DNA of 64,000 nt from Trichoplax sp. H2 (lineage: Eukaryota): the NCBI GenBank assembly GCA_003344405.1, contig NOWV01000169.1, forward strand, positions 1 to 64,000. The letters are read 5' to 3'. The position numbers were made by a program, and so were the translations under genes. Shown here in pieces: positions 18,275-63,660 of the stretch (position 1 is the first letter of the stretch; every line of letters begins with the position of its first letter). The notes under the pieces were generated by a model. It ran no database searches, was not told where the DNA came from, and saw nothing but the letters and a program-made list of their open reading frames with translations.

Positions 18275-18760
18275 ACTACACTGTACAGTACATCTTACAG
18301 TACAACATCTGTAGATTCTACAGTACAATGCACCGTAGAACCTACAGTATACTGTACAGTACAGTACAGTACAGTACAGTACTGTACAGTACATGAACCG
18401 ACAGGGCTACAGTACTGCACTGTACGTTACCACCACCACCACCAGTGTTCACCACCATGAGTCCATGACCACCACTCTCACTGTACCACACACACACACT
18501 GACCAGGGGGATAGGCGGTATTGAAAAGGGTACGGTATCATACAGTACAGTATTTACGTAGTCTGCATGAGTATCAAGACTACTATACTGTACTGTACGG
18601 TACTGTACCGAATACAGTACAGTGTACACTGTACAGTATTCACTGTATTTTAAGGAAAGGTACGGAATCGGAACGGAATCACTAATTAATTCAGGTAATT
18701 AATGCATGAAAGGACTAGTTACGCTCTGGTACAGTACAGTACTGTACTGTATACTGTACG
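18275..18760. repeat. CAGTA/CTGTA cluster upstream of UROS
   Basis: e.g. TACTGTACAGTACAGTACAGTACAGTACAGTACTGTACAGTAC at about 18350-18392. Confidence 0.9.
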
Positions 18761-26949: not shown

Positions 26950-27540
26950 GGCATACAGTACTGTACCGGGCAAGGGCAAAGCTAGTTCGTACTGTACAAA
27001 CTGGAAAGAGAAGAGTGACAACGCTTTGTACAGTACTGTACTGTACAGTACTACAGTATGAGTACAGTACTCCTGTTCATGGTTGTACAGTATACAGTGC
27101 AGTACATGTACTGTACAGGTAAATTATTCGGTTTAGCGCTGCTCGCCATTTAGCAATACTGTACAGTACAGTACTGTATTCTCCGCATTGTCGATCTGCA
27201 TGGACTCTTCCGTACTGTCGTGAAACTCCGCTAGCCAGTGTCCTTTATCGGGTTGAGTCCTGTCAGGAATTAAGGCATTATCATTGCATTTGTATGAATG
27301 GCACATTAGGCTAACCAGGTGTTTGCTGGCTGGGTGGCCTAATTCACACAAGTGACAAGTGTGTACAGTACTGTAAAGTACTGTACTGTACTGTACTGTA
27401 CAGTGTGTATCAAAGTACTGTATTTTGTTACTTTGAAAAGCATCAACCAGTGATCTTAATAAGCAAATACTGATTAAAAGTTGTTACATTCCATGTTCAT
27501 TGTACAGTACTGTACAGTCTGTACTGCAATTATACAGTAA
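26950..27540. repeat. CAGTA/CTGTA cluster in the BOD1-like/COX15 divergent spacer
   Basis: Several mixed arrays, e.g. 27027-27120 and 27361-27405. Confidence 0.9.
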
Positions 27541-34000: not shown

Positions 34001-34189
34001 AAGCAATTGTCGTCCATCTGCACTTACTTTACTGCACTAAATAGCAAAGGAGTAACTGGTTTATAAAATTTCTCGTACAGCAGATTAATTATATAGTTAT
34101 CCGTTCATTGCAGTTCCTACTTTTAATGTTGAATGTTCCAGGGCTCGGATGTCAGGATATTCCCTCCTTGCAGCTTCTTTATCAACCAT
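31023..34189 (-). CDS. MAEA: CTLH/GID E3 ligase RING subunit MAEA (Gid9/Fyv10)
   Basis: Spliced [43 protein letters not shown]...[20 protein letters not shown]...[17 protein letters not shown]...[12 protein letters not shown]...CPICS...[41 protein letters not shown]...VICPRT...KRVFLL*. Confidence 0.94.
31825..31882. mobile_element. Small hairpin MITE-like element in a MAEA intron
   Basis: GGACTACTGAAG (31827-31838) and CTTCAGTAGTCC (31868-31879) form a perfect 12-bp inverted repeat. Confidence 0.6.
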
Positions 34190-34309
34190 CTCTTTTCAAG
34201 ATTCCTTACTGGCAGTCTCTTAAGATTCCTATTTGCTAAAATGCCTGAAGTACAATCACTGTCAGAATCTTAGAAAAGGTGCATCACGAAATGACGCTTG
34301 TGTTATTCT

Positions 34310-34520
34310 TACACTGTACTGTACGTACGTACTGTACAGTACTATCGTACAGTATTAGTACAGCGTAACTCCATTTTATTGATAAACAAATCCAATACAG
34401 TATACAGTACAGTACAGTACAAGTACAGTACAGTGTACATGCTACTGTAGCCAGCCAACTTGGTGGCTACTTTTGATAGCTTGTCAGCAGTCAGCACTAC
34501 TACAGTAAGTACAGTACTAC
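34310..34520. repeat. CAGTA/CTGTA cluster upstream of MAEA
   Basis: e.g. TACAGTATACAGTACAGTACAGTACAAGTACAGTACAGTGTAC at about 34396-34438. Confidence 0.9.
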
Positions 34521-34623
34521 AATTACCGACGTGCACTCGAACCAAAGAGTGGTGTCAATGTAGTTAAAATGGCTAGCAAAAAGTCGACCTATTTTTCTAT
34601 ACGATATTGATGCGGTCTTGAAG

Positions 34624-34680
34624 CATGGAATACTAGAAGAAGAAGGCAGGGTCTCCTTCGTTTTCTTCTAGTAGTCCATG
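34624..34680. mobile_element. Small hairpin MITE-like element (terminal inverted repeat about CATGGACTACTAGAAG)
   Basis: CATGGAATACTAGAAGAAGAAGG...CCTTCGTTTTCTTCTAGTAGTCCATG. Relatives at 31825-31882, 35720-35756 and 37004-37040. Confidence 0.65.
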
Positions 34681-34744
34681 GTCTTTTTCAAAATGTGCCA
34701 TGTACATTGTACGGTATACCAGGCCAGGGTAACAGAAAGAAAGA

Positions 34745-35330
34745 GGGATTGTTAACGATTTTCATTGAAAAATGTGATCGCTGACTGTTTTGCTAGTCAT
34801 TTCGCTATATCGGAAGACTGGAACCGTATACTATGCGTAACCAACATGGTAGCTACTTCGGACTTCGGAGCATAGCCGTAAACAGTACTGTACTGTACTG
34901 TACTGTATACGTACAATCGTCGTACAAGTTAGACGGTAAGCCTCTTTGATGAAAGTAATAGTAATTTAGTGTACTGTACTGTACAGTTCGAAACTGACGC
35001 ACGGGATATACGATTGTACTGTATACTGGAGTTTCTAACCTTAAAATAGCTGAAAAGCTGACATTTGCATATATTAGAAAAATTAAAATTTTAATTTAAT
35101 AATGTAATATTTTTGATTGAAATCCAAGTTGTGTACTTTTTAAGGNNNNNNNNNNNNNNNNNNNNGGGATTGTTAACGATTTTCATTGAAAAATGTGATG
35201 GCTGACTGTTCTGCTAGTCATTTCGCTATATCGGAAGACTGGAACCGTATACTATGCGTAACCAACATGGTAGCTACTTCGGACTTCGGAGCATAGCCGT
35301 AAACAGTACTGTACTGTACTGTACTGTATA
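34745..35330. repeat. Gap-flanking duplicated segments: 34745-34909 ~ 35166-35330 and 34910-35145 ~ 57545-57785
   Basis: Direct sequence comparison shows near identity with a few SNPs and indels. Runs of 20 N at 35146-35165 and 36231-36250. Confidence 0.93.
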
Positions 35331-35577
35331 GTACGGAATATACTGTGTACAGTGTACAGTACTGTATGTATCATTTCATATCATATGCGTTCACTATCTT
35401 TCAATATTGGCTGGCAGGGGGATTTTGGGAGAGAAGTATAAATTTTTTCATGAGTAGGCCCTGTTTACTGTACGTATGACTTTTAAATTGCTTCGTTTAG
35501 AACTTCAAACTGATGTAGGTGAGGCTTACAATGATCTTAAGAGTCACTTTGGCTGGTTTCAGGGGAAGCCTAGAGTA

Positions 35578-35621
35578 ACATTATCGTAAACCGTCAGCAA
35601 AGCGACGGGAGTTTGTACTAG
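35578..35621 (+). mobile_element. Helitron-like 3' end fragment
   Basis: ACATTATCGTAAACCGTCAGCAAAGCGACGGGAGTTTGTACTAG|T. Confidence 0.7.
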
Positions 35622-36204
35622 TGTTAATAAAAAAAATAAAATGTTGAACCTCCAGGTTTATCATGGACAGAAACATACTGTAGTATGCTTACTACTGTAC
35701 AGTACAGTACAGTACTGTACCATAGGCTGCTAGAAGAAGACTCTAGTAGTCCATGGCGGTAAAGCTTACTGTACAGTACTGTACAGTGTACAGTACAGTA
35801 CAGTACAGTACAGTACATAAGTGCGGATGCTAACTACCTTAGGCGGGTTGGTGTTTAGTACCGTGTTACTACTGTACCGTAGCAAAGACTGCTTGAGTTA
35901 GTGAAGTTGAGTCATCGCACGTGTGATGATGATACGGTGTATTAGGCACCGTACACTAGAGTACTGTACTTTACTGTACTGTACAGTACAGTGCATCTAG
36001 TGTTGTTTAATTAACTAATACTGTACAGTACAGCAAACCAGATTCCTCAACCTCAATCGCACTTCTATTTAATGTCAACTGAAATTACGGTACTGTACTG
36101 TACAGGTTCGAAACTATACTGCACTAACGGCAAACGGCAGTGCAGAACTTTACAAACGTTAGAAGATTTTTTTTAGAGTTGGGACATCATTATTATATCG
36201 TGCT

Positions 36205-36230
36205 ATGTCGGAAGCAGGCCCTCCACAACA
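36205..36230 (+). other. Second (allelic or duplicated) copy of the ATP5MK start, cut by an N gap
   Basis: ATGTCGGAAGCAGGCCCTCCACAACA is identical to 37459-37484. The region 35325-36230 is a polymorphic copy of 36631-37484. Confidence 0.9.
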
Positions 36231-36267
36231 NNNNNNNNNNNNNNNNNNNNTATATATAATAATGTAC

Positions 36268-36355
36268 CGGCCAGTAAATGAGATGATTGCAAGAAATGAA
36301 TGGCGGTTATTGGAGATGATATTGCTAACTGCTTGGCAATCACTTCTTTGGCCAT
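36268..36355 (-). other. Second (allelic or duplicated) copy of WDR6 exon 1
   Basis: The region 36251-36629 is a polymorphic copy of 57192-57550. The 88-nt exon matches 57209-57296. Confidence 0.9.
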
Positions 36356-36880
36356 TACTCTTGCATTAGTGTCTAGTATTCAGTAGTACACCAAAAGTTT
36401 TTACTAGATGCTGCAGCAGTGTGTCGTATACTACTGTGCAGTATATAGCAATTGGCTCTTTATGTTTTTATTACTTTTTATTGCAGTATTTAGTATTATT
36501 AAGTAATTTTATTATTGTAGTATTGACAGACCGCGACATATATACAGTTGTTTAATAAAGTAATATACCATCATTTTCAGATGGGTGTCCGGCCATCCGT
36601 TTTCACGTGACGTACTGTACATTCGTACATTGTATAGTACGTAACATACTGTACTGTACACTGTACAGTATGTATCATTTCATATCATATGCGTTCAATA
36701 TCTTTCAATATTGGCTGGCAGGGGGATTTTGGGAGAGAAGTATAAATTTTTTCATGAGTAGGCCCTGTTTACTGTACGTATGACTTTTAAATTGCTTCGT
36801 TTAGAACTTAAACTGATGTAGGTGAGGCTTACAATGATCTTAAGAGTCACTTTGGTTGGTTTCAGGGGAAGCCTAGAGTA

Positions 36881-36924
36881 ACATTATCGTAAACCGTCAG
36901 CAAAGCGACGGGAGTTTGTACTAG
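36881..36924 (+). mobile_element. Helitron-like 3' end fragment (counterpart of 35578-35621 in the duplicated segment)
   Basis: Same 44-nt sequence with the same flanks. Confidence 0.7.
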
Positions 36925-37458
36925 TGTTAATAAAAAAAAATAAAATGTTGAACCTCCAGGTTTATCATGGAAAGAAACATAGTATACTTACTACTGTACT
37001 GTACCATAGGCTGCTAGAAGAAGACTCTAGTAGTCCATGGCGGTAAAGCTTACTGTACTGTACTACAGTACATAAGTGCGGATGCTAACTAACTTAGGCG
37101 GGTTGGTGTTAGTACCGTGTTACTACTGTACCGTAGCAAAGACTGCTTGAGTTAGTGAAGTTGAGTCATCGCACGTGTGATGATGATACGGTGTACAGTA
37201 TTAGGCACCGTACACTAGAGTACTGTACTGTACTGTACAGTGCATCTAGTGTTGTTTAATTAACTAATACAGTACAGTACTGTACTGTACAGCAAACCAG
37301 ATTCCTCAACCTCAATCGCACTTCTATTTAAGGTCAACTGAAATTACGGTACTGTACAGGTTCGAAACTATACTGCACTAACAGCAAACGGCAGTGCAGA
37401 ACTTTACAAACGTTAGAAGATTTTTTTTAGAGTTGGGACATCATTATTATATCGTGCT

Positions 37459-38199
37459 ATGTCGGAAGCAGGCCCTCCACAACAGTTTCAAGGTTGGCAG
37501 CGTTATTTTAATTCCAGCACCATAGCTGGTAAAAGAAATGTAAGTATGGTACTGTATGTACGGTACATCTCATATTCTCATTTACGTTGTCACGTTACTG
37601 TACTGTGCTACCGCAAAATTTGTACATACCGAGCTCATTTATATGGTAATACTCGATTGTTTTTGAACATAAACGTGCAATAGGGTTCGGTTAGGGTTAC
37701 TAGCTAAAGGTTACACTGTTTTATACTTTTACACCGTAGTAAAGTAGTAATTCTGAAATTAAAGTCTGACATCGCTTAGAAAGTTCGAAATAGTGTTATT
37801 ATATACTGTAGTTCATCTGCTCTGTTCATGACTGGAGTTTTACGGTAAGTGTCTCACTTTATTAGATCATTTAAATTTTGTTCTGCGGAAAGTTTATATC
37901 AAGATATAGAAAAGTAAATGGTAATGATCTTTAACTTACTACTAGTTAATTCGAAATATATCGAAGCTATAGAAATAAAGTTAATAATATTCGTGTATTG
38001 AACTTCTCAGTAGGCTAGTAATAGCTTATGTTGCTTGATCAATTTATAGTAAACGTGTGCATACGAGTATAAATGAATTACGCATATGTAACTATGGCAG
38101 ATTTCAAGATTCTTAATATTCTGCTTGTAGATCGTTCTTGCTACCTACGGAACTATCTTTGGATTCTATTGCATCTACCGTATGACTAAGAGAAAATAG
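37459..38199 (+). CDS. ATP5MK: ATP synthase membrane subunit k / DAPIT (USMG5), 2 exons
   Basis: Exons 37459-37539 and 38131-38199 give MSEAGPPQQFQGWQRYFNSSTIAGKRN/IVLATYGTIFGFYCIYRMTKRK*, matching the DAPIT pattern F-x-G-x-x-x-YFNS-x-T-x-x-G-x-x-N-x-VLATYG. Confidence 0.9.
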
Positions 38200-39782
38200 T
38201 GCTCGGGTTGACATGGCGCATGGTCACTAATGGTTACGCAACCCAAGGATCGTACATGATAAAAAGAAAAAACGCAGCAGCCAAACTTAGCCACCATAGA
38301 TGATGCAAGATCATATATTTTAAATCGAGTAAATAATATATTTATAATATAATCAAATTGCTATGTACCAATATACCAAATGTATGCGTGTTGTGGCTTT
38401 CTAAGATACTGTGATGAATGCTGGATTGGTGACTACGTATTTAGCCGTAATGTTCTGGTTTTGTTGTACATGTTAAGATTACGTGATAATCATAATCGGT
38501 GGGGTTATTAAGTTTGCTGATAGAATTTGATGCTCTTCGAAAGTGTTACTGATTTATCAATGTAAACTTAACCTGTTAGCTTGCTTAGTAGTTATTCGGT
38601 AAGAGTATAAAATAAAAAGAGAGCGTTTTAATACATATGGATTGTAGTTGAATTATCTACATGTGTATTCACAACTATATATCTGCCTCGGCAATCTTTC
38701 TTTAAAACCATCAATGGTTATTATTATTAATTGTCTAAATCGTGTGAGAACTGTCTATTATACATATTTGATTACTGATACAAATCTACTCCTGATCAGC
38801 ATTTTATTTTGTTTTAGTGATAACATTCTTCTACTTAGTACACGGCTTTTTCATCTTCGATCTTGATTTCAGGAAGTCTAATTACGTCATATGAAGTATT
38901 TGTATTGACAAATTATAGTTTATGCATTAGTAATAATTGTTATTACGCCTAAATTATTCCTATGTGATAATTAATTAGCCATAGTTATTTTAGGTGTAAT
39001 TAAGCGTATAAACTATATCATGCCTGTCACGACTGCAAGTTAAACTTAAAAAGATCTCCTTTACTTTCACGTTACCAACGAGTGGCCACAAATAGCAAAT
39101 TACCAACGAGCAACTTAATGACTTATTCAAATTTAATATAAGCAGAAGTCTCCCTTTCCTCTATCGTATCTCCTTTTTATATCATTACAGTTAATACATC
39201 AATACTCTATATTTGTAAGGTAAGTTAATAAAACCACGACAACAGTAAATCCCACGAGCAGCGCGGGGGGTATTTATGCTACTGTTAGATGACTCTGATT
39301 ATGGGTTCATTTCAATAGGTCAGTATAAGATTCTTACAGTACTTTTTACCTAAAGATTTCTTCATGTAAAACGAATAGCTCTAAGGTAGTAATTTCTACA
39401 GAGTACTGATTATTAAAATAGTATTCGTTATATCGTTAAGGGTGGCCACTGGGCCTTTAAATTTTGATTTGAGGTAATGCTCTGATGAAAATTGAATAAA
39501 CATAGAATCTTTATAGAGTTTTCTACACAGTTATTTTGATTGTTACATTTTCTTATGACGGTTGTTATCGACAGAGCAAGCTTTGCTTGCATACTCAATC
39601 GATCCTTAGACACATTATAATGATTGGTATAGTATTCACCACAGCACTAAGGACATTGTACCGCACTGTAGATATCTTACAGTACCTGCTAATCTTAACT
39701 TGGTATGTCCATCACCGTACAGTACATTAGTTATCATAATGCGCTTTGGATTATTAACTAATCTTAATATAGCATAGTACAT

Positions 39783-39845
39783 TACTATTAGCGGGATATA
39801 TAATATCGAATGATAATACTATCTGTTAATTTTATTAACAAATAG
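39783..39845 (+). mobile_element. Degenerate internal fragment of the same Helitron-like family
   Basis: CTATTAGCGGGATATATAATATCGAATGATAATACTATCTGTTAATTTTATTAACAAAT resembles 40266-40324. Confidence 0.6.
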
Positions 39846-40085
39846 AGCATAAACTTATATTTGACAGTTTCGCTTACCAACCTTAACGTAGCATTAATAC
39901 TGTATATAGTAACCATCCTTATTCGGTAAACATACTAATACGAAAGTTACTAGGAAATTTGAATTGGTATAGAAATGAATGATCTCTAGGGTTTATGTAA
40001 ATATTATTGAGAAGGTATAAGTGATTGATACACATCAGTAGGTACTATTAGCTCTATTGCTCTCATGCATTTCGTAGTGTTACCC

Positions 40086-40372
40086 TACTGTAGTTCCCCT
40101 GTCCCGGTTATTTTTGATTGCTATATATCATATAACAAAAAGTGTTTCTAAGAGGATAATGTCAGTCAGTCAGCGATCTGATAGGCGAAAGCGAAGTGAA
40201 CAACGTGGAAATGTACGATCAGTACGTACATGAAATCAATCTGTTTTAAATATAGTAGTACCCGGCTATTACCGGGATATATATGATGTCGAATGGTAAT
40301 ACTATCTGTTAATTATTAATAAATGGGTACATTATCGTAAACCGTCAGCAAAGCGACGGGAGTTTGGACTAG
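40086..40372 (+). mobile_element. Non-autonomous Helitron-like element, longest copy
   Basis: Ends with the GC-rich hairpin CCGTC-A-GC-AAA-GC-GACGG, then 9 nt, then CTAG followed by T, the canonical Helitron 3' end. No TIR or TSD seen. The 5' boundary is approximate. Confidence 0.75.
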
Positions 40373-41770
40373 TAGGTTTTAAAATATAATCTCACGACAG
40401 TAATTATCCCTAAAATGGTAAACACAACCAGTAATAATCCCTAATATGGAAATAAACTGAACATAACAATGCCAATGTTTGTCATTGACTTATCCTAGCG
40501 TTTTAATGATCTTACTGTTCCACAGTAAATTGGACAGATATAAATACTACATCAGTACTTGTGTAGAGCTCATCAGATGGGATATATAGTGTTACTATCA
40601 CTGCGCACATTGAATATGTCCATTCAGCAGTTTTTAACCTTAAAATCGTATACAAAGGTCATGGCTTTGTGCTCCGCTAAACATTCTTGAAATTAATCAA
40701 GAGCTCTGGTACTATTTAAAGGATAATGCTAAAATTTTGCATCTACTAAGGATTCAGTGTCTTAATAACTTTGAATTTGAGATAAAGAGTACAGGAAATT
40801 TCAATGTAAATTTCATCTGATGTAATTTTGTATTAAAATTCTAATTTATCACCTACACCTGTACACGAATAGACATGTAAAAAATAATAAAAATCGCAGG
40901 TGTAATTAGATACAGCTCAGATACCTTACATCAAGCATCGGAAATTTATAGTTACCACTTCAAACGTATGACATACACTATTTATTGTCACAATCTCATT
41001 TCGAAGTAATACTTTCAATACAACGGTGATCAGTATCGTATTCATTATTAAGAGGTCCTTCCGTTTAAAAATCGCAGATACGAAGGTATCACACATTCGT
41101 GATATCGGACAATTAGGATTTCAAAACAGTCCGTTATTCATACATTAAATTTTATTTTATGTTCTGTAATTTGGTCTAGTACAGTGACCCGTGTGATTTA
41201 GGTCAAAGAAACTTCAACGACGTTCCGACAGTAAATTGGCAGTATCTCAAGTCAAAAGAGGACTAGCGATATTGGCGCTTCATGGTTTTAATATACCATC
41301 ATTTCTATCTAACTAAATCGGCTAAAAATGTTGATCTTTATTGGCTTATCTCCCCTAGGTGGTAAACTACAAAGGGAGAAATCTTGCTAAGTTATTCTAG
41401 AGTAAGTAGTGTAGCATATCGTGCACAAAAGCAGTGTTATTGAATCTACATTTCCAGCAATTAATTATGAGTCCTCATACCGCATATCTATAATATGGGT
41501 TCAATTTCAGCTGCAACGTAAGAATTGTAACTCTTTATAAAATTTTTAATTAATTAAACAAGGCAGGATTTAAGAGTAGTAAAATAAAAGTATGTAGATA
41601 ATAATTTATTAATGTTAATACTAGATAGCACTGTAGCATTGCTGCGAATTTATAATATAAGTATATTTATAAGCAAGCAAGTTAGTAAGTCTGCTATTTA
41701 TTTTTCAGATATCAAAAACAAGTCCATATGCTACAGACTGAGTCAGCTGTCAAAAATATGTGATAAAAAA

Positions 41771-44036
41771 TTATCTTGGGGAGTCATTTTCGTGGGATTC
41801 CAGCAATCGCTTTTTTGACATAAATTCTCTTTCATGCTCAAATTCGATATTTGATTTTGGTAATAACCTCGAAACGTTTTGCCTAGCCTCGGTATCTGCA
41901 GGCAATATTTGATCAAATTCTTCGATATCACTGATATTATACTCATCTATGTCATCGTCAGCTATAAATTCAATTTCCTAGAGGTATTTAAGGCGATAGC
42001 AGATAAGAAACAAATACTTTGTGAGTATATATTAAGATCTTAAGATAGTATTTTACTTCTACTTCGTCGTCACTTTCTATTTCTTTTAGCTGATAAAGGG
42101 ATAAAGAACAAAACATAAGCAAAAAAAACGAGTCTAAGATAGCTTTTATAAAGAAAATATAAATCATAAATATATCTTTCAAGGATAAAAATAACCTTAT
42201 CCTCTTCCCTTATGTCCATCTCCTCACTATTAAGAGCACTTTCGAAAGCTTTCTCAGGAAAGTTATATATTTCTGCATACTAGTATCAAAGCGAAAAATA
42301 CAGTATTAAAACTTGAAGAAAAAGGTAAGACAGGGGTATCATCAACATCACACTCTGAATCACTTACTGTTCCTTTTCGTAACCTTTCTAGTAATTCATT
42401 TTCAACCGCATTCTCAATTCGTGCAGCAATCAAGGCTTTCTCCTAAACAACACACATTCTTAACTGTTTATATATTTCAAGATTTCACAGAGTCTTAAAG
42501 ATTTTGATAACCTCTCGCTTTTTGTTCACGTTTTCAGCCTTCTTACTGATGCCCACTAACACTTTCTGGCTACATATACATTGTAAGTTTGTGATTATCT
42601 TTTATTCGTCAATGTGAATATAGAAATTGTGCTATACCGAAATAAGGAGTGATGCAAAATTTTTTCTTACTTTGTTTTTAACTTCAGTTTTCTCATTTTG
42701 ATAAGATACTATTCAATAAAAGAAAGTATATATTTCACTATCTACTTTATTAATTACAATAATGACCTTCCTGACATACTAAGCACCAAAATCAAAGTCA
42801 CATACCTGGGTAATTTTTGTAAACCGTTGCTTGCACTTATGAATCGAAAAATTTGGCCAATACATCAAATTTTTATCAATCTGATAACAGCACCAACATA
42901 TTGAATTATAATTTTGAGCTATCACATAATATAACATCGCAACAATAGAAATTCTTGTACCACATTTAGAGCTTTCTCATAGTTTTTTGGTAGCTTTATT
43001 TTTTCCCACAGTTTAGCTGGTGAATGAGCTCGCTCAATAGTTTTTATATATAAAAAGCAATTGCCTATATAGAAGAACAATCGTAAATTTACAATTTGTG
43101 TGACAGTCTCCTAGTTAGCTAGCTAGCTAGCCCAGAGATGCCTTCATAAGCTACTGTTGTAGTATAAGTCTACATAGCAACAAAACAATCGAGTCAAGAA
43201 ATCTAGCGACAAAACTCTACTTGAGCTGCAGTATAGTTCTTTTAAGTACAAAGGGCAGAAAATTTATGTTGAGGAGACCTGCTTTGCATTTTTATGCTAT
43301 AAACGTTAAATTATAGTAATATATTATAATACAAATGGAAGATGCTCAATAACCAACATTAGACGCGTCCAATCTAATTAATTACTAATATACAAATGCA
43401 AATATATATATATATATACTTGATTTATGAAATGATAACTAAACATTCTTAACGGACTATACGAAATCAGACTTTGTTAATTACCGTTTAACTCCTTGAC
43501 AGTGGCGTATCGGCTGTTCGCTAATGGGCATGATTGCCTATTACATAATCCAGTTACATTATATTCATTACGACAGAAACTCTGCGCCTTTGTCCTAAAA
43601 TATGAACATGCGCTCACTACTAAGATCTCAACATTCGTACTGTATATTCATAGCACATTTACATTCCGTCGAATTACATTTAGCTTAAAATGATAACTGA
43701 TTAATTAGCATTCAACTTAAATTATATTATTCAAGAAAATCTGCATAAACACGTTCTTGTTACTTATAAAATAATTACTGGCTGTTACTGAATATCATTG
43801 GACATTTACTTTGCTTTAAATGAACAGAATCCGTTATTGATAACGCTCCATATCACCTATTTAAAGTATAAGAAAATACGAATAACCTTAGGTCTTTACT
43901 GAATATGACAAATTAACATATTACTGCGGCTCCAAATCTGAATACTGTACATTTTAACAATAATTATAATTATAACTAATCAATAGCAATACAGTATTAT
44001 TTTGTGCAACTGTAACCTCACCTCATCATTCTGCAT
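41771..44036 (-). CDS. MAK16: Ribosome biogenesis protein MAK16
   Basis: Spliced [55 protein letters not shown]/...[21 protein letters not shown].../...[20 protein letters not shown].../[33 protein letters not shown]..., then an acidic tail. Stop TAA at 41773-41771. Confidence 0.95.
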
Positions 44037-44079
44037 GTTGCTCTGTACAAACCTTCGCAAAATCAAATAAAAAAGCTTG

Positions 44080-44800
44080 CAATATACTGTACAGTACTGT
44101 ACATATAGAAAAGCGAGTATGTAAACCTAAGAAGGGTATATACTGTACGTACTGATCTCTTATTGTCAAGAATTTGGTAGATTAACTAAGCACTGGTATA
44201 ATACTGTACTGTACAGTACAGTGTACACTGTACAGACTGGAGACTCGTGGGCATTCTAACTTACAGTAGTACTGTACAGTACAGTACAGTACCGTACTGT
44301 ACTGTACGTTCACTAGTATCTCAACACCAATATTTAGTTTTCGTGTACTCTACTACAGTATTTACTGTACTGTACTGTACTGTACAGTACGTTAGACCCT
44401 TCATACTGTACTGTACAGTACAGTACGGTATTGTGAGACGTTTCAGCATACTGTACAGTGTACAGTGTACTGTACAGTATAATTACAGTACAGACTACTG
44501 TATCGAGTGCAGCCAGTACTGTACTGTACAGTACAGGCAATGTGGAAAATACTGTACAGTATACAGTACTCAGCGTTGTTGATAATAATGTTTACTGTAT
44601 GTTTAATGTTATACTGTATACTGTACATACTGTACCGTACTGTAAGCTGCAGCGAAAAGCCTTCTGCTCACAGTAATGTACAGTACAGTACTGTAGTGCA
44701 CAGTATTGTGAACAAATAACATTGGACACCTTTTTTTACATACTGTACAGTGTACAGTACAGTAAAGTAAGACGGTATTGTACTGTACTGTACATTACAG
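44080..44800. repeat. Dense CAGTA/CTGTA pentamer array in the MAK16/DHX15 divergent spacer
   Basis: Dozens of TACAGTA/TACTGTA units in mixed orientation, interspersed with unique sequence. They generate the spurious YSTVLYCTVQ ORFs in the track. Confidence 0.95.
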
Positions 44801-44877
44801 TGAACCGTAACTATAACGCAAATTATACCCATCAGATATCGATAGTGATTGCTCCCTGAGCTATAAGTGGAATAGCC

Positions 44878-49447
<4,570 letters not shown>

Positions 49448-49984
49448 AATTTATTTTAACGTAAAGATCCTAAGACCTAATTTATATAGTATGGTATAGT
49501 CATATTAATATCGATCGAAATTCTTGATACGCGTATTCACAACATACTGTAGTATTAGCAATTGATTAATATGCAGGATTTTCGCAATGGATACCGTAAT
49601 ATGGGTAATGCTGTATAATTACATCTGCTATGTGAGGTAGCGATCTAGTATCGAGTTGCGTTTAACTGTCGTCGGTAATAAAGGCTACGTATATATATAA
49701 GTTGAATGATTAGTTATATAATAGAAATTTAATCCGAAATACTTCCAATTCATCGTTCCTTTGTTTGATTGAGGTTTTTTCTTGATGAATATAGGACGTG
49801 TTATATAGATTGCGCTATCTTAATCCCTAGCTATACGGCTAATAGTGATGTGCATATCTGTATAAAATAATAAGGGAGATGGAATATCAATTATTCCGCT
49901 AATTGATCGACCGTTTATTGATGTATTTTAACGCCGATGAGTTTATGAATAAACTTCGGATTAAAACATGGAATCAAGAATTTT

Positions 49985-52900
49985 TCACTGTTCATCAGGC
50001 TTTATAGTAACGTGAAAAATTTCTATACCAGTGCCGCAAATACCTATTATCCATTCATTGCATCTGTCACAAAATTAAGTGAAACAATTTCTCAATAAGC
50101 ATTTGCTCTAAAAGAAATTTATAACCAGAAATATCGTTTCGCATTGACTATTCGTGCGAAATTTTCAATTTTTTTGCTTTAATAACCTAAAAAAGCTAAA
50201 TGTTTCTTACCCGATTGGACAAGCATGTAGATTTGAAGCGTCGGCAACATTAACAAAACTGGAGAATATCCGCTTTACTGAACAAAACTACAATATGTTA
50301 TAAGTGATTAATTACAATTACTAATAAATATTCTAAATATGAGTACAACTAGGAAGAGTTCTTTACTTTGGCATCAGTTGGGATATACCAAATTTTTAAA
50401 CGTTGATCAATTGATACAGAAACTATATATGTAGGGCTCAAGAACTGGATACCTACGTTGTAATAAAAAAGGACTTTTAGACATTTAATAATTTAAAGTA
50501 TTTAATTACGGTTAAATTTACATCACTTGACGAACCGGTTATTGAAGCAGTATGTGCAGAGTCGATAATTTGAGAATTCAAGACAGTAACGCAACCATTA
50601 CCGCTCTCATTTATGATAATGCAGCACAGAAAGATTTTTGTGTCGTCTCCTGCGCTAGTTATCTGATACCTATTCGTTATTACTTGTATTGTCATATTAG
50701 AACAAAATTGATGGACATGACTTAAGATCGTTTTTCATTCCAGACTTCTTGTAAAATAAGTCCAATTGCACTCTGACAAAAATTTTTATAATCACATGAT
50801 AATTAATCAACACAAGTGTAATTTCTTACCAGGATCTCGCATCGCATTGATTTTATTAACACCACAGGCATGGGCTTTCAGGACGTCAGGTTTATCTACA
50901 GAAATTCAGTATTAGTTCACTGAGAAATACACGCACACATCATAAAATAATCTTAATAACATAGACCCGTTTCATCTCAGAAGACTTTACGATTATTATA
51001 TAATTTTAGCAAGTAATAGCGTCAAATTTCCTAACTACATTTAGGATCAAGCAAGACTTCTTCTTGTGATAAGGAAAACTGGTCCAATAATGCAGTGTCG
51101 ACTTGCCAAATAGCAATTTTGCCATCAGTCGCACCACTAAGTAAAAAGGGGATAGAATAACGGTTTGCATCTGAGCTATAGATGAAGTAATCAATACTAA
51201 GAATGCAATGCTGATGATAACTCAATTGCCCAATAAACTTAAATTTTTTCTTGATTGCATAAAACCCGTATAGTCTGAAATGCAGTACATCGATAAAAAA
51301 AGTTAAGAACGTAAATATCAACAATTATTGTTATCTTTAAAATATGCAGCGGTACCTAATTAATCCGTCAGAGCAAGCGGCAGCAACGAAGTATATGCTT
51401 TCGTCAGTAAACTTGCTATAAATGGTTTGATCAATACAAAAAGATGCAAGAGCCATGATACGGCTTTCCAATGATGAATCTTGCTGTGTTTTAACTTTTT
51501 TACGGAAATTTATTTCATTTTGTGATAATTCAGAAATAAGAGTAACATCGGAGTCGTTATAGTTCTGACTCAGTGCAACGTCACCATCGCCACAAGCTGG
51601 CAGAGTTACCTTCCAGGCCTTTAGAAGCATTCGTCCACCAGCAGTAAATAAAATGATAATCCGGCCTCGCTCAGAACCATCAAGATTACTTTGCAGGCGT
51701 GAGCCCACGATTGCTCGAATACTCGAAATATGGTCTCGGCATACTTTCAATCTTCTTAGAAATCCCTCATTTCCAGTAACTTTATTGATGTTAAGGCATA
51801 TCCGATAGCATATAACTCTTTCAGAATTATCTAATAATTTAATTTTGAACACTCTAAAAGTAAACTGTCTACTGAAGAACGCTAAACAGTAAACTGTTGT
51901 AAATACTTCGGTATTTAGTAACTTCACTGGATACATGCTGTAATAGTCATATTTGTATCTTCGCTACTAGTGACCGTTATCCCTGAATGTTGCGATGTTG
52001 CTTTATTCCACAAACATGAGTTCATGATTTTTTAGTGACATAGATTATTACGAATGCAAACTTAAAAATACGATGAATATAAAAATGTGATTCTTATTCT
52101 ACATAAAAGAATTAAATACAATACTGTACAGATCTCTTACTAGCTCCAAGAGGTTTTCGCCGCCAATCCAAAAGATAAATATCCGTAATTTCTCTGCCAT
52201 GAAGTGATTCCTAATTACAAATAGGCGGGATAATTTCGTATAATTTTCTTGAATATCTTCAGTAAACTCAAGGATTTTACTACCGTATTAGCATAGTACC
52301 TTTAAAATTACTTTACAAGTAGGTTTTGTCAAAGTGAAGTTGCAAATACAGGCTTTTGTTGCTTTAATATAAGCGAAGGTACCTCTTACACCCCCATCCT
52401 TTCAGAACCGATAAAATGGAAAATCAATATTTTGAGTACGTACTATGTTAAGACTTTTAAAGGCAAATATCGAATATTAAAATATTTATCAATTAAAGCG
52501 GACTTCTTCGATTAGGCAAATATCCCAGCCACGATGCCCTCCTCCACATTCCATTTGAAAAATAACTTCATTTCTTTCCACATGCCAAATAACAAGATTG
52601 CTCGAACGAAACGCGATTATTATTAAGTTGCCATTACTGATTGTAATTAAACGTTCTATCCAAGTCAACCCTTTAAACGGAACCTAGTTACATAACGAAT
52701 AAAACTTTCAAAAATCTAGCTAAGTTTCTAAAAAGCTAGCCAAAAGTGTATCATTAAAATACAGCAATACAAGCGGTAGTCATTTACCTTAAGTTTTTCA
52801 ATTAGCTCAATACCACGTTCTGTTTTTAGAAACTTGCAATACATTCCGTTTCTACCACAAGTAAAAACATGATTTCTAGAACTACATATCGACGTAACAC

Positions 52901-55900
52901 CGTTGTCTCCATGCAAATTTCGGAATGAATTAATCGGAAGAATACCCTATAGTGAAAAGAAAGCAGCAATAACCACAGTGGTTATAAAACAAGTTAAATT
53001 CTTGATAACTGATATCATCAGGAATTCAAGTTGATAATTGTAGGTATTACGAAATAAAATCACTCGTCCACTATTTAGCAAAGTATCAGTGATGCACGTA
53101 TAATTATTAAACTAACAACATACTATGACCATTAGCAAAGACAGAATCTTATGACATCATACCTCCTTAATGTTATGATGAACTTCGCTAGTATCAGTAT
53201 CATTTCCATCGTATACATGAACAGTTCCATGTCTGTCCCCACAGATGATAAAACATGTCTTCCGCTTTGTACGGTTGCTACTCGTACTACCAAGACTTAA
53301 ATCATTAACACTAGAAATGCTGATGATTTGTGCACAGGTTACCCAGCGATGCTTACAATTAGGCAAATTCATGCTCTTCATAAGGTAAGTCTTCAATCCA
53401 TCTTTCGTGCTAACAATTGTAAACCAAACCTAAAAAATTATACGTATAACCATGTTATTATGCTCGGTCTCAATACTTTTATTAATTAAGAAAACTAATG
53501 CATGAAACTTATAATACCATAACTCCTTCTGGACCTGTAGCAATTAAGTTAACAGATTCGTGGTCAGTGTAACCGATTGCCCAAACCAGACTTAAAACTT
53601 TACCGGAAAAGTAATTTTCTAATTCGACTGCTTTGCTGTTAGAACCTAAAGACGTTACCGTCACCAGACGTACAAAGTAACAGTATCTAGTTATAATTAT
53701 TACAAATTTAATAACTGATTAATGCGTTAATCATACCAATCGAAGATATGTAAATACTTCCGCTAAGGTTACCAATCGCAATCAACCTGTGTGGTCTATT
53801 TACGGAAATTATGCTATACGATGCATAATTTATATTTTTAAATAATAATTTCCAGACGTTCCTTACAGGATTTTGTTGCTGTACCTCCCAAGAATACTGA
53901 TACAAGTAACTAACAGACAGATATGTATACGAAAACTCTAATAAGATCAAATGTGTCAAATATTGTGATGATGTAGTAAGTCAAATTTTAAGATTATTTA
54001 TTCACCCCTTATCTGTCATTAGCAGTATTGAAGTTGCATTCCACAAAGCAAGCGATCTTGGAAAATCCTTTCAACAATTCTTTGATAAGCTGTCAATGTA
54101 TACCGTACTATATGATTAAATAACTACACTTACATACGATTAGTTTTACCTTAGATTCAGTTTTAACACTTTCGTCGAGATTAACGGGCAAAGTAATTGT
54201 TTGATTGACAACTTTGAAAAGAGAATTGGAACACTAGTGTAAATTTGTTGACAAGTAAAGCTTGTGGCTTAAAATTTTTGATTACGAAACCAAAATGAAG
54301 ATTTACCAAGCGGATGAAAATTAAGAATAGGCCAGAGACGTATTGATGCATCTCCACCACCAGTAGCCTGTCATGCCATTAAATAAAAAAGAAGAGCATC
54401 AGAAATCTCATCGATTCTTAAAAGATCAATTGTATCTACCGCAAGAGATCCATCAGGAGAAATTGCCATACTCCAAATATTTTTTCCCTGAATTGATAAG
54501 GACGTAAATAATATTTTGTAAGACTCTACGTTTATATATCTAAATCAAAGATTGTAATACTCAAATAAACGTACTATATGTCCATTAAACGAATAGATCA
54601 TGTTGCCTTCCAGGTCCCAAAGTATACAAGAGGCATCCTGACATGAAGATTCAAATTGTATGAAAACAAGAGGAGACAAATTTAAAATTCGTCGTGATCT
54701 ATACGGATCAGAAATTTCTGAATACCTCTCCAATACTTATGACATAATCAGACAGTAGGTACGCATCCCAAACTCGCGCCTTATGACCATAGAAGGTCTT
54801 TAACGGAGATAATATTACTGGCTTTCTTTCTTTTCTGGGATCTGAAATCCAATCTTCATTTACTTGCCACAATCGTATACTTCGATCATCGGACGCAGAG
54901 CAGAGATAATTTTCATTAGCGAAAGTAATTGAGAAAATAGCACCCTACAAGTGAATTAATTTGGAAATTACACTGCTCATATAGTGTGCTTAAAATGGTG
55001 ACATAATTCATACTCTTATATGGATATATTAAGTAATTGATTAAAGGTTTATTACAGCTGCAGTAGAATATTACCTCATGTCCTATCAGCTTTATGGAAA
55101 CTTCTGCTACTTGTTTCTTTTCTTGTAATGATTCCTTGGAAGAAAAGGCTCGCCATAATAAAATCTGATTATAAACTGTACCACTTCCCAGCGCTAGCTC
55201 GAGCAAAGTACAGTTATGTTTGACGAAGCTGGCAGAATATCTTTATTTACATGATCGATTAAGGAAGATAATTTAGTAATAACTGTGGTGGAAACTTTGT
55301 ACTATTTCATAAAGTAATAAATCACCAAAGTCTGATACAACATACACTGCTGGTTGCATTGCACGATGTAACGTACATTTAGGGTTTTCCATTCTAGTAT
55401 AACAACGGCATTTAACCCAGTCACAAGAGCTAGGAGGATAGGCTCCTGAAAGTAGCGTATAAGGTAGCACATGAAGTTATCTCAAATTTAATTCAGCGAT
55501 AATTTTCAATCACGATTTACAATTTGGAATTATGATTACTAGCAAAATTGCATTGCATAGGAGCAGATAATTATTATTCTTGTTGTCATACCTTCGTTCT
55601 GATGTCTTTATTGTTATCATAAATCCATGCAGCATCCCATATCCAAGATTTCACATTGAATACCGAGGTCAAAGTGTCCATTCTGGGTCATACAAATAAG
55701 TTACAGTCATGATCGTTTCTAACTACGGAATTAGGGTAAATTACAATTGAGGATACAAATTTGGGCGAAGGAAACGCTTAATCATGATGGAATTATCGTT
55801 GCGATGTTAATACGGTAAAGGTATAGTACATACCGAAACATTATTGACTGACTAAAGACCTTTAGATGGCTAGAAAGTAAAAATGCAAAAAAAACAGCGT

Positions 55901-57296
55901 AAACGCTTTTCAGAGTAGTGAGGAATTACTAGTGATTGGTGTAATCATGCAATTGGCAACGTCCTTATTTACTGGAAGTTGATAGCCGCTTGAATATTAA
56001 GTGTCAAAATAATAATAATGGAAAAGTATAATCACATGCACTCATCTACTGACATACATTTACATTTTACGCCGTATAAGATGAAGGGTGATATCTACAT
56101 GCTAAGGGTAATTCGGTATTCACACATTTTACACATATTTCAATATACAGGATAAGATAAATAAGCGGTATAGTTTAGTAGCCACACAGGATAGATACTT
56201 GAACTTACTCAAACAAATAACGATCACTACTTCCAATAACGTTGATGATTCGGAGGCATTTTTCACCAAATATTGCCACGACATAATCGTTATTAGAAAA
56301 AGCTGATTTTAAATATACAAAATAGTCGTCAAAACATTTCTTACCCATGCCCAAGCAATCATCATTGGAGTTCGCCGACAACTACAATATTACATCTTTT
56401 TAAACTAATCTGCCGAGCTGCAGTATTGCCTAATAGTGAGCTCTACGGACGTACCGTACCTATTGTACTGTACTTATCCGAAACTGTATGTCAACATCGG
56501 ATTACTTTAATTATTTTAACGTGAAAAGATGTAATTAACTCAAAGATCGCATTTTCATACTTTGTACGTCTTCATTGCAGTAAACGGTATTACATTAATG
56601 AAAATATTTTAAAATAGTACTCTGACAAGACGTAATGGATCGATTTATGCCAGCAGGAAATCATAGAGTTATAGTAATGTAAGCGACAAATCCACAACAG
56701 CACAGTATCGATTCTTAGCCATTTATTATTTTACTTTTTAGTGTTTGCTAATTACACCGATTCTATGCTATCATGTATACGCGTATGGTTAACCTGATCG
56801 TATTCCATGGATATTACAACCATGCAATACTTTTGATGTGTTCTGCTTACAACCAGTTAAAACATCGAAAAGATGTAAGTATTCTCCTTCACCTAAATTA
56901 AATTGCGCAAATTTATAACGATTAAGATTAAAATATCTTGCATATACGTACGTGTATACCTAAATTTAAAGCTTGATGCGACAACTGCATGTAAAACACA
57001 CATATCCACTTAAAATGTGCTTGTGTTATTATAAATGATGCAAGCACACAGCACATAGGATAAGTACGAACTGTATCTCCTATTTGCAGTTAAAATATTA
57101 GAAGTTTTTACTTTACATAACAAATTATCCATGAGTATGTTACAGAGTGTACGTATGAAACATAGTGCATGTTATCATTTTGCATATACTGTATATATAA
57201 TAATGTACCGGCCAGTAAATGAGATGATTGCAAGAAATGAATGGCGGTTATTGGAGATGATATTGCTAACTGCTTGGCAATCACTTCTTTGGCCAT
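49985..57296 (-). CDS. WDR6: WD repeat protein WDR6 (Trm734, tRNA 2'-O-methyltransferase cofactor), about 20 exons
   Basis: Exon 1 MAKEVIAKQLAISSPITAIHFLQSSHLLAG; later LALGSGTVYNQILLW, SASDDRSIRLW, FYGHKARVWD, ATGGGDASIRLW, ICGDRHGTVHVY, MECGGGHRGWD, ESLHGREI, VTSSEDT, DHISSIRAI, LFTAGGR, AAACSDGLIR, SGATDGKIAIW, SAGDDT, AHTASITG, VSVSIDQRLKIW, ICGTGIEIF. This motif order is characteristic of WDR6/Trm734. Confidence 0.9.
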
Positions 57297-57625
57297 TACT
57301 CTTCCATTAGTGTCTAGTATTCAGTAGTACACCAAAAGTTTTTACTAGATGCTGCAGCAGTGTGTCGTATACAGCAATTGGCTCTTTATGTTTTTATTGC
57401 TTTTTATTGCAGTATTTAGTATTATTAAGTAATTTTATTATTGTAGTATTGACAGACCGCGACATATATACAGTTGTTTAGTAAGGTAATATACCATCAT
57501 TTTCAGATGGGTGTCCGGCCATCCGTTTTCACGTGACGTACATTCGCACAATCGTCGTACAAGTTAGACGGTAAGCCTCTTTGATGAAAGTAATAGTAAT
57601 TTACAGTAGTGTAATGTACTGTACA

Positions 57626-58150
57626 GTTCGAAACTGACGCACGGGATATACGATTGTACTGTATACTGGAGTTTCTAACCTTAAAATAGCTGAAAAGCTG
57701 ACATTTGCATATATTAGAAAAATTAAAATTTTAATTTAATAATGTAATATATTTGATTGAAATCCAAGTTGTGTACTTTTTAAGGTATCATTGACTGATC
57801 GTTAAGCGAAAAAATAATCCAGATTTGATATCGACAATGCAGTTTAAATCGATATCAAAGAGGTGCGATTAGCAGAATTTCCTCGCAAAATGGCACAAAA
57901 CGATGCTAAATCGCTCAAATCGCACTCCTTCGAGATAGATTGAAACTATACCCTCGGTATTAAATGTGGATTTTTTACATTTAGCAATCAGTCAATGACT
58001 ATCTTAAAGTACACAACTTAGATTTCAATCAAAGCATTGCGATATTAAATTATTCTAATTTATGTAAATGTCAGTTTTTCAGCTGTTTTAAAGTTAGAAA
58101 CTTCCTAGCCAATCGTACAGTATACCACGTGCAGTACGTCCATTTCGAAC
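57626..58150. mobile_element. ~525-bp imperfect palindrome (foldback/MITE-like element)
   Basis: Arms pair over about 240 bp: GTTCGAAA/TTTCGAAC, GTTTCTAAC/GTTAGAAAC, CTGACATTT/AAATGTCAG, TTTGATTGAAATC/GATTTCAATCAAA, AAGTTGTGTACTTT/AAAGTACACAACTT, TCATTGACTGAT/ATCAGTCAATGA, GTGCGATT/AATCGCAC. Confidence 0.85.
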
Positions 58151-63009: not shown

Positions 63010-63660
63010 TGAGTTACTGTATCCCTAATGTTTACTGTACTGAGTAGTACCTGTAGCTACTGTAGTGTCGTGCTGTACTGTACAGTACAAGTACAGTACA
63101 GCTATCATGAACTCAAGTACTCAACGATGCTGTCTGGCAGCAACATACTGTAGCAGCATAGAACTATTTAAATTAAATAGTTTTTAAACTTACTGTACAT
63201 ACCATACATTATAGTACAGTACTGTACTGTACTGTACAGTACATTTAAAACCGTACAGTACAGTAATGTACAATATACTGTACTGTACTGTACTGTACAG
63301 ACCGGTATTACGTTGTAAAATGGTTATACACAGTACACGGTATAAAGTTACTGAACCTCTGACAGGTCTATGACAAATGGTAATACTATCTGTTAAATGA
63401 GCACATTATCGTAAACCGTCAGCAAAGCGACGGGAGTTTGCACTAAAATTAATTATTCAATACTACAATACAGTACTGTACAGTGCACTTGTGCACTAAA
63501 TGTGCAGTTTGCTGTAGCGTTTACGGCTACACTCCAAAGTAGCTACCAATAATACCGTACACTGTACCGTACTGTACAATACATGTACAAAGTTGTCTAC
63601 AAACTATTAATTGACGGTTACTCTGAGAGGTACTGTACTGTACTGTACTGTACCGTACTC
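63010..63660. repeat. CAGTA/CTGTA cluster in the DENND10/DCTN1 divergent spacer
   Basis: Several mixed arrays, e.g. 63213-63300 and 63630-63660. Confidence 0.9.
63371..63446 (+). mobile_element. Helitron-like 3' fragment in the DENND10/DCTN1 spacer
   Basis: AATGGTAATACTATCTGTTAA...ACATTATCGTAAACCGTCAGCAAAGCGACGGGAGTTTGCACTAA (CTRR end). Confidence 0.7.

What the first reader, a model, noticed from the sequence alone, without database searches (positions are those of the whole stretch)
34745..57785. All four junctions of a reciprocal ~21-kb deletion plus tandem duplication (or excised circle) covering ATP5MK-MAK16-DHX15-WDR6
Let A be the MAEA upstream region, B about 36631-57550, and C the sequence from 57551. 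Seen: an A-C join at about 34910 (B absent), an A-B join at about 35330, a B-end/B-start join at about 36630, and a B-C join at about 57550. Each end occurs as two polymorphic versions, so this is not simply a duplicated read. Inference: the most economical model is unequal reciprocal exchange between homologues, giving A-B-B'-C on one and A-C on the other, with the first B collapsed into the gap at 36231-36250. Copy number stays balanced, but the A-C chromosome lacks genes essential in model organisms (DHX15/Prp43, MAK16), so it could persist in a clonal animal yet be lethal when homozygous. Alternative: B excised as a circle, either free or reintegrated in permuted form.
Basis: partly seen in the sequence, partly recalled or inferred. 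Interest (0 to 1): 0.82.

Follow-up and report, generated by a model that had tools for sequence, protein, structure and literature searches.

The report
Reciprocal 21-kb rearrangement joints in Trichoplax
At two scaffold gaps in a Trichoplax draft genome, short contig ends carry a join that skips a 21-kb block of housekeeping genes and a join linking that block's end back to its start; this fits one reciprocal exchange, but no reads spanning the joins could be obtained to prove it.

Summary
The window is three contigs split by two 20-N gaps. Contig 1 ends with A joined to 236 nt of C. Contig 2 is A joined to B-start. Contig 3 begins with 379 nt of B-end joined to B-start, then runs through B (about 20.9 kb) into C. 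Each duplicated piece differs from its twin by roughly 1-2% substitutions plus indels. That matches the allelic level of the organism, Trichoplax, so two versions of each end do not by themselves show a rearrangement.

Points for a real exchange:
- The flanks share no exact word above 14 nt, so repeat collapse or homologous recombination between repeats cannot explain the joins.
- Both novel joins keep the same two hexamers (TGTATA and CGTACA). They read as the two products of one exchange.
- The A|B breakpoint sits at the tip of a strong DNA hairpin.

Not shown: no junction-spanning read or contig. Public runs were available only as k=31 contigs, which break in the very abundant GTAC-type microsatellites at every join.

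My odds:
- duplication on one homologue and deletion on the other, about 0.4;
- excised circle or subclonal mosaic, about 0.2;
- assembly artefact, about 0.33.

This would be a new member of a known kind, of moderate interest.

The parts
34745..34909 (.). A, version 1: the end of contig 1's upstream region (intergenic, upstream of the MAEA-like gene). It ends in a (GTACT)n array plus TGTATA.
   Evidence: 165 nt, 2 mismatches against 35166-35330.
34904..34915 (.). A-C join: TGTATA followed directly by CGTACA, with B absent.
34910..35145 (.). C, version 1: the 236-nt tail of contig 1.
   Evidence: 96.7% identity to 57545-57785.
35146..35165 (.). Scaffold gap, 20 N.
35166..35330 (.). A, version 2: the start of contig 2.
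35331..36230 (.). B-start, version 2: the rest of the 1065-nt contig 2. The A-B join is at 35330|35331.
   Evidence: matches 36637-37484.
36231..36250 (.). Scaffold gap, 20 N.
36251..36629 (.). B-end, version 2: the 379-nt head of contig 3.
   Evidence: BLAST match 36251-36615 = 57192-57541; the ATTCGYACA motif extends it to 36629 = 57550. Includes a 15-nt and a 5-nt indel.
36621..36641 (.). B-end to B-start join: ATTCGTACA + T + TGTATAGTACG.
36637..57544 (.). B, the main copy: about 20.9 kb carrying ATP_synth_reg, Mak16, DHX15 and a WD40 gene.
37417..37680 (+). Exon of an ATP synthase regulation (ATP5MK-type) gene.
   Evidence: PF14960, E 6.7e-08.
42266..43647 (-). MAK16 exons.
   Evidence: PF04874 E 7.1e-08; PF01778 E 3e-13.
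45450..49346 (+). DHX15/Prp43-type DEAH helicase exons.
   Evidence: Helicase_C, HA2_N, HA2_C, OB_NTP_bind; 99% identity to the Trichoplax DHX15 proteins.
51009..55476 (-). WD40-repeat gene.
   Evidence: PF00400 at 54711-54944.
57192..57550 (.). B-end, version 3, continuous with C.
57545..57785 (.). C, version 3. The ordinary B-C join reads ATTCGCACAATCG, at 57542-57554.

Best explanation
The A-C join and the B-end/B-start join are real DNA joins in the sequenced Trichoplax clone. They are the two products of a single reciprocal exchange between the left and right borders of a 20.9-kb segment. Most likely one homologue now carries A-B-B-C and the other A-C, so copy number stays balanced.

The exchange used no long homology. 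It happened in GTAC-rich, self-complementary microsatellite sequence, in one of two ways: at a 6-nt TGTATA overlap, or after two breaks staggered by 6 nt and filled in. The left breakpoint lies at the tip of a cruciform-capable hairpin, a plausible place for a break.

The short-read assembler collapsed the two B copies. It kept the four joins as allele-specific contig ends and stacked them at two minimal gaps.

Shown: the four joins in the assembly, the absence of repeats, the base-level complementarity and the hairpin. Inferred: that reads carry the joins, that both products sit in one nucleus, and that they lie on different homologues.
For: - All four joins are present and each twin pair is highly similar.
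- The longest exact word shared by the A-end and B-end flanks is 9 nt. For the B-start and C-start flanks it is 14 nt. Neither a k>=31 graph nor an overlap of 40 nt or more could fuse these places in silico.
- The tail of contig 1 and the head of contig 3 both point to the same place 21 kb downstream, in reciprocal configuration, with break positions that overlap by 6 nt (57545 and 57550). Two independent random chimeras would not do this.
- Both novel joins keep TGTATA (34904-34909 = 36631-36636) and CGTACA (34910-34915 = 36624-36629). They therefore read as the two products of one event.
- The A|B breakpoint lies in the apical part of a DNA hairpin: -17.2 kcal/mol, z -4.15, 0 of 200 shuffles fold as well.
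- The organism is Trichoplax, propagated clonally. Kamm et al. infer a long period without sex and fixation of somatic mutations (PMC6057997: abstract and section headings; passages).
Against: - Every unusual piece is a short contig end next to an N gap (236 nt, 1065 nt, 379 nt). Each is no longer than one or two filled read pairs, and this is where assembly errors concentrate.
- No read or contig spanning the A-C or B-B join was obtained.
- If the window is the published H2 assembly, a reference-guided re-assembly step was applied. Its authors say false read placement can lead to chimeric joins (PMC4058956, passages).
- At four positions in 4.4 kb (34299, 34675, 34779, 38119) all four public runs differ from the window. 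None of them may therefore be the source clone.
- Two versions of each end are expected without any rearrangement.
- Strictly, the two joins together hold one more copy of each hexamer than a conservative crossover between the two ordinary joins seen in the window would give. This needs an extra assumption: an unseen B-C allele, or staggered breaks.
Confidence: 0.4

Rival explanations
1. Assembly artefact. Both haplotypes are plain A-B-C. The A-C tail and the B-end head are wrong extensions of contig ends, made during assembly, gap handling or reference-guided re-assembly in low-complexity GTAC microsatellite. If an ordinary B-C allele contains TTGTATACGTACA, then TGTATA is a shared 6-mer node with two entries (A, B-end) and two exits (B-start, C). 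The four joins would then be its four possible traversals in a very small-k graph.
For: - All anomalies sit at contig ends beside 20-N gaps.
- The tails are shorter than a 500-bp insert (the library is described in PMC6057997, section 14).
- The swap happens exactly at a shared 6-mer.
- GTAC-type arrays are very abundant: 36 arrays in 64 kb.
Against: - No identified step of the named assemblers fuses places 21 kb apart that share 14 nt or less.
- A positional graph should keep places 21 kb apart separate.
- That the window comes from that pipeline is itself an inference from N density.
- AlignGraph's small default k is recalled, not seen in the paper.
Confidence: 0.33
2. The joins are real, but not a fixed duplication/deletion pair on the two homologues. 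Either B was excised as a circle (free, or re-integrated in permuted form), leaving A-C. Or an unequal sister-chromatid exchange produced two cell lineages, one with the duplication and one with the deletion, which coexist in the pooled clonal animals.
For: - The same base-level complementarity fits an intrachromatid exchange at TGTATA giving a deletion plus a circle.
- DNA came from many pooled animals (PMC6057997, section 14).
- The pattern of allele versions fits an event on a single haplotype equally well.
Against: - A circle without a centromere, or two reciprocal subclones, would have to stay frequent enough to be assembled.
- Nothing in the window separates this from the tandem arrangement.
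Confidence: 0.2
3. The scaffold is literally right. One haplotype carries short local duplicated fragments: an A-C piece, then an A-B piece, then a B-end piece in front of B.
For: This is simply the order written in the scaffold.
Against: - It needs three fragment insertions whose ends coincide with the same two breakpoints.
- Contig 2 overlaps contig 3 by about 850 nt, so the 20-N gaps cannot be true distances.
- In four runs the summed contig depth over the B-end piece equals that of the flank (bin 36299-36445 against 33800-34240). The tool warns that this figure is no copy number.
Confidence: 0.04

Closest known systems
Reciprocal duplication/deletion products of unequal exchange between homologues or sister chromatids (mitotic unequal crossing-over; reciprocal end-joining after two breaks)
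   Same: One deletion joint and one tandem-duplication joint with the same two breakpoints. Copy number is balanced if both products stay in one nucleus.
   Different: Classical cases use flanking repeats of hundreds of bases or more (NAHR). Here no shared word exceeds 14 nt. Retention of both products in one clonal animal lineage is inferred, not shown.
Extrachromosomal circular DNA formed by excision at microhomology
   Same: A head-to-tail joint of a segment together with the matching deletion joint, with only a few bases of overlap.
   Different: No evidence for circular topology. The segment carries housekeeping genes. Persistence at assembly-level frequency would be unusual.
Palindrome-mediated breakage (for example at palindromic AT-rich repeats in human translocations; recalled, not looked up)
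   Same: The left breakpoint lies in the apical part of a strong self-complementary hairpin.
   Different: The stem is short (about 20 bp, imperfect). The right breakpoint, in the allele seen joined to C, has no such structure (z 0.54). Cleavage was not tested.
Haplotype-induced duplicated contig ends at minimal scaffold gaps in short-read diploid assemblies
   Same: The twin copies of A and of B-start on either side of the gaps differ at the allelic level and overlap rather than abut.
   Different: Ordinary haplotig overlaps do not attach sequence from 21 kb away, and not in reciprocal form.

Membership tests
Reciprocal unequal exchange (duplication plus deletion pair) | A deletion joint (A-C) and a head-to-tail joint (B-end/B-start) that use the same two breakpoints. 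| tested here: met
   A-C uses 34909|34910 (= 35330 and 57545). B-B uses 36629-36631 (= 57550 and 35325). The two joins overlap by 6 nt at each breakpoint.
Reciprocal unequal exchange (duplication plus deletion pair) | Both novel joints are present in independent reads of the same individual or clone. | tested here: inconclusive
   Only k=31 contigs were available. None of the 32 listed pieces (of 21,321) bridges a join with 31 nt or more on both sides.
Reciprocal unequal exchange (duplication plus deletion pair) | Depth of B equals depth of the flanks (balanced). | tested here: inconclusive
   Contig mean depths for B against the A flank are X1 61.4 vs 64.3, X2 28.9-31.8 vs 34.8, X4 40.9-43.5 vs 46.3, X9 31.6-35.3 vs 32.3. 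The tool states that this is no copy number. Equal depth is also what no rearrangement would give.
Reciprocal unequal exchange (duplication plus deletion pair) | The two products lie on different homologues (phasing). | not testable with these tools
   Needs long reads or a phased assembly.
Non-allelic homologous recombination between flanking repeats | Direct repeats of at least some tens to hundreds of bases at both borders. | tested here: not met
   longest shared exact words are 7-9 nt (A-end vs B-end) and 9-14 nt (B-start vs C-start); no repeat family links the two borders.
Excised circle (eccDNA) | Head-to-tail joint on a covalently closed molecule. | not testable with these tools
   Needs an exonuclease-resistance test or long reads that go round the circle.
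Repeat-collapse misassembly in a k-mer or overlap graph | A shared sequence at least as long as k-1, or the minimum overlap, at the swapped joins. | tested here: not met
   14 nt or less. Only a graph with k of about 7 or less could swap partners at TGTATA.
Transposable element or site-specific excision | Terminal repeats, or a recombinase or transposase gene within B. | tested here: not met
   no terminal direct or inverted repeat of B; of the 127 ORF pieces scanned (out of 171 that remained of 187 after a low-complexity filter), none gave a transposase or recombinase family at E <= 0.01.

The most novel reading that the evidence does not exclude
B persists as a stable 20.9-kb extrachromosomal circle, or a permuted re-integrated copy. 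It carries DHX15, MAK16, an ATP synthase subunit gene and a WD40 gene, and it supplies the second gene copy for a chromosome that has lost them. That would be an animal keeping housekeeping genes on an episome through clonal propagation.
Probability: 0.06. Interest if true: 0.8.

Novelty: new member of a known kind. Interest (0 to 1): 0.35.

Why it matters
If real and fixed, this is a structural footprint of ameiotic propagation in a placozoan: both products of one inter-homologue exchange are kept in one lineage. One chromosome would then lack at least two genes essential in model organisms (DHX15/Prp43 and MAK16), sheltered only by its partner. After selfing or sib-mating, a quarter of zygotes would lack B entirely.

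That would give a simple PCR marker for tracing lineages and for testing claims of rare sex in Trichoplax. It would also point to GTAC-type self-complementary microsatellites as breakage sites.

If it is an artefact, it is a useful warning about contig ends at minimal gaps in this assembly.

Tried and rejected
1. Reads across the joins.
- 17 of the 18 listed runs hold part of the stretch, from 5 studies. The best share of words is 0.83.
- Four runs from four studies (X1, X2, X4, X9) were laid on 33800-38200. All are k=31 contigs, not raw reads.
- None of the 32 listed pieces (21,289 more were not shown) bridges a join.
- Pieces end at 34909 (X1, X2, X4) or 34911 (X9), begin at 34913 (X1, X2) or 34941 (X4), and end at 36600 (X1, X2, X4) or 36503 (X9).
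- X9 record 28 (35305-35552) has only 26 nt left of the A|B join.
- I first read the breaks at 34909/34913 as forks that support A-C. I rejected this. The A-end array has exact 24-26-nt matches elsewhere in this 64-kb window alone, and depth in these arrays runs into the thousands. Breaks at array ends are therefore expected anyway.
- The joints table (15 rows shown, 657 not shown) is microsatellite noise, with sides of 20-28 nt.

2. Contig depth as copy number. It is about equal for A, B and C in all four runs. The tool says it is no copy number, and equal depth does not separate the models.

3. Independent assemblies.
- No whole genome is held for this window.
- Exact 30-mers next to the C and B-start joins found 0 matches in metagenome contigs and 0 in genome contigs.

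4. Earlier scan notes: nothing on this genome. One unrelated note about a duplicated gap flank had no bearing.

5. Literature.
- Searches listed no paper on heterozygous structural variants in Trichoplax. No claim beyond these searches.
- Searches found no text for my recollection that Celera-type scaffolders write a minimum of 20 N for gaps estimated as short or negative. That point stays recalled.

6. Rfam and tRNA scan over the window: no hits.

7. Transposon-like ends for B: none.
Full report
WHAT IS THERE

The window holds exactly two N runs, each 20 N, at 35146-35165 and 36231-36250. It is therefore three contigs.

- Contig 1 (1-35145) ends with the upstream region A, followed at 34909|34910 by 236 nt that match the sequence 22.6 kb downstream (C, 57545-57785).
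- Contig 2 (35166-36230, 1065 nt) starts with a second version of the last 165 nt of A. At 35330|35331 it continues into B-start.
- Contig 3 (36251 onward) starts with 379 nt that match the end of B (57192-57550). At 36629-36631 it joins B-start, then runs through the whole of B into C at about 57544-57550.

The twin copies:
- A: 2 mismatches in 165 nt.
- C: 96.7% over 241 columns.
- B-start: 846 of 859 aligned bases identical, plus many microsatellite indels.
- B-end: 94.8% over 365 columns, including a 15-nt indel.

ORGANISM AND ASSEMBLY

[quoted passage not shown] Kamm et al. 2018 (PMC6057997; passages, sections 14 and 16) report about 1% SNPs and 0.1% indels within each lineage. Two allelic versions of any 200-900-nt piece are therefore expected with or without a rearrangement.

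Their Table 1 gives 44.8 kb of N in the 94.9-Mb H2 assembly, against 10.8 Mb of N in the 104.6-Mb T. adhaerens reference. The window's 40 N in 64 kb fits the first, not the second. That assembly was made from a single 500-bp paired-end library (2 x 150) with MaSuRCA, then re-assembled with AlignGraph against the reference.

That the window is this assembly is my inference. That 20 N is the minimum gap a Celera-type scaffolder writes for short or negative gap estimates is recalled; two literature searches found no text for it. It does fit the fact that contig 2 overlaps contig 3 by about 850 nt rather than abutting it.

GENES

Pfam on 127 ORF pieces, out of the 171 left from 187 after a low-complexity filter, shows:
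- a MAEA-like gene (CTLH, RING) upstream of A on the minus strand;
- inside B, an ATP_synth_reg exon (37417-37680, +), MAK16 (42266-43647, -), DHX15 (45450-49346, +) and a WD40 gene (about 51000-55500, -);
- an SPA/Avl9-type gene in C (59980-60477, -).

Both borders of B are intergenic. WDR6 as the name of the WD40 gene was not tested. There is no transposase or recombinase hit, and no terminal repeats of B.

CAN THE ASSEMBLER HAVE INVENTED THE JOINS?

The longest exact word shared by the 165-310 nt before the A|B join and before the B|C join is 7-9 nt. For the 236-301 nt after them it is 9-14 nt. No k-mer graph with ordinary k, and no overlap of 40 nt or more, can fuse these places. For the same reason, recombination between flanking repeats is out.

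The two odd contig ends point to the same place 21 kb away, in reciprocal configuration, with break positions that overlap by 6 nt. Two independent random chimeric reads would not do that.

What remains on the artefact side is an unidentified step working with very short words. The AlignGraph paper says the approach can join contigs that overlap by only a few nucleotides, and that false read placement leads to chimeric joins (PMC4058956, passages). Its small default k is my recollection, not something I saw in the paper. A positional graph should in any case keep places 21 kb apart separate.

BASE-LEVEL ANATOMY

- Ordinary A-B join: ...CTGTACTGTATA|GTACGG...
- Ordinary B-C join: ...ACATTCGCACA|ATCGTCG...
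- A-C join: ...CTGTACTGTATA|CGTACAATCGTCG...
- B-B join: ...ACATTCGTACA-T-TGTATAGTACG...

Both novel joins contain TGTATA and CGTACA, in opposite order. Two readings fit:
- (a) A B-C allele with an extra TTGTATACGTACA existed. The exchange was then a conservative crossover, or an excision, inside the 6-nt word TGTATA, and it gives exactly the two joins seen.
- (b) Two breaks staggered by 6 nt were filled in and cross-joined, with one filler T.

Either way the two joins look like the two products of one event. This is the strongest internal argument that they belong together. The same pattern, however, is what a graph with k of about 7 would produce by wrong traversal of a TGTATA node.

BREAK SITE

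As single-stranded DNA, the A|B region folds into a hairpin of -17.2 kcal/mol (z -4.15; 0 of 200 shuffles fold as well), with the breakpoint in its apical part. The B-B join also folds strongly (-17.3 kcal/mol, z -3.28). The ordinary B-C join does not (z 0.54).

GTAC occurs 550 times in the window against 198 expected. There are 36 arrays of three or more GTAC[AT]-type pentamers. These arrays are self-complementary, so they are plausible fragile sites. This is a hint at mechanism, not a test.

INDEPENDENT DATA

Seventeen of the 18 listed public runs hold the stretch, from 5 studies. I laid four runs from four studies on 33800-38200. All are k=31 contigs.

None of the 32 listed pieces bridges any join; 21,289 further pieces were not shown. 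The pieces stop at 34909-34911, start at 34913 or 34941, and stop at 36600 or 36503.

I do not count these stops as forks in favour of A-C. The array at the end of A has exact 24-26-nt matches elsewhere within this window, and array depth reaches thousands. Breaks at array ends are therefore expected regardless.

Contig depths of A, B and C are about equal in each run. The tool warns that these are not copy numbers, and equality does not separate the balanced rearrangement from no rearrangement. It speaks only weakly against a plain hemizygous deletion, a plain extra copy, or a literal reading of the scaffold in those runs.

The contigs of the four runs show mosaics of the window's two versions at the B-end sites (36363, the 15-nt indel, 36555/36559). 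At four positions all four runs differ from the window (34299, 34675, 34779, 38119). None of them can be taken as the source clone.

No other assembly of the locus was reachable.

VERDICT

The reciprocal-exchange reading is coherent down to the base and I found no concrete in-silico route to the joins. But all the evidence sits in short contig ends beside gaps, and no spanning read was seen.

My odds:
- about 0.4 for duplication on one homologue and deletion on the other;
- about 0.2 for a circle or a subclonal mosaic;
- about 0.33 for an artefact;
- a few percent for the scaffold being literally right.

Unequal exchange giving a duplication/deletion pair is a known kind of event. What would be notable is that both products are kept in a clonal animal, with one chromosome lacking DHX15 and MAK16. 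My three literature searches listed no report of this for Trichoplax.

Noticed in passing
window 9471-9614 (-), 40249-40373, 35578-35641, 36881-36944, 63403-63453, 15714-15758 (-): A small dispersed repeat family. There is a 125-nt inverted pair at 94% complementarity (9490-9614 / 40249-40373), plus 45-64-nt fragments at 88-98% identity, one of them inside B-start. It is possibly a MITE-like element. No Rfam hit.
   Followed up: partly
window about 57670-57779 and 58006-58102: An inverted repeat in C, about 110 nt at 78% identity. The tail of contig 1 stops at the position equal to 57785, just after the first arm. The public-run contigs that cover the tail (X1, X2, X4) all stop 31 nt further on.
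   Followed up: no
whole window; clusters at 18350-18750, 27028-27518, 35693-36105, 44085-44794, 63075-63651: GTAC is 2.8-fold over-represented (550 against 198 expected). It forms 36 arrays of GTAC[AT]-type pentamers (1.2% of the window), clustered between genes. Depth of these arrays in public-run contigs reaches thousands, so the motif is very abundant genome-wide.
   Followed up: partly
window 36600: The B-end contigs of three runs (X1, X2, X4) all stop at 36600. That is 18 nt before the point where the window's two B-end versions diverge (36619). This suggests a further variant or join at 36601 that the window does not show. Unexplained.
   Followed up: no
window 34299, 34675, 34779, 38119: At these four positions the contigs of all four public runs carry the same base, and it differs from the window. 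The window's source has private alleles, or consensus errors, relative to these runs.
   Followed up: no
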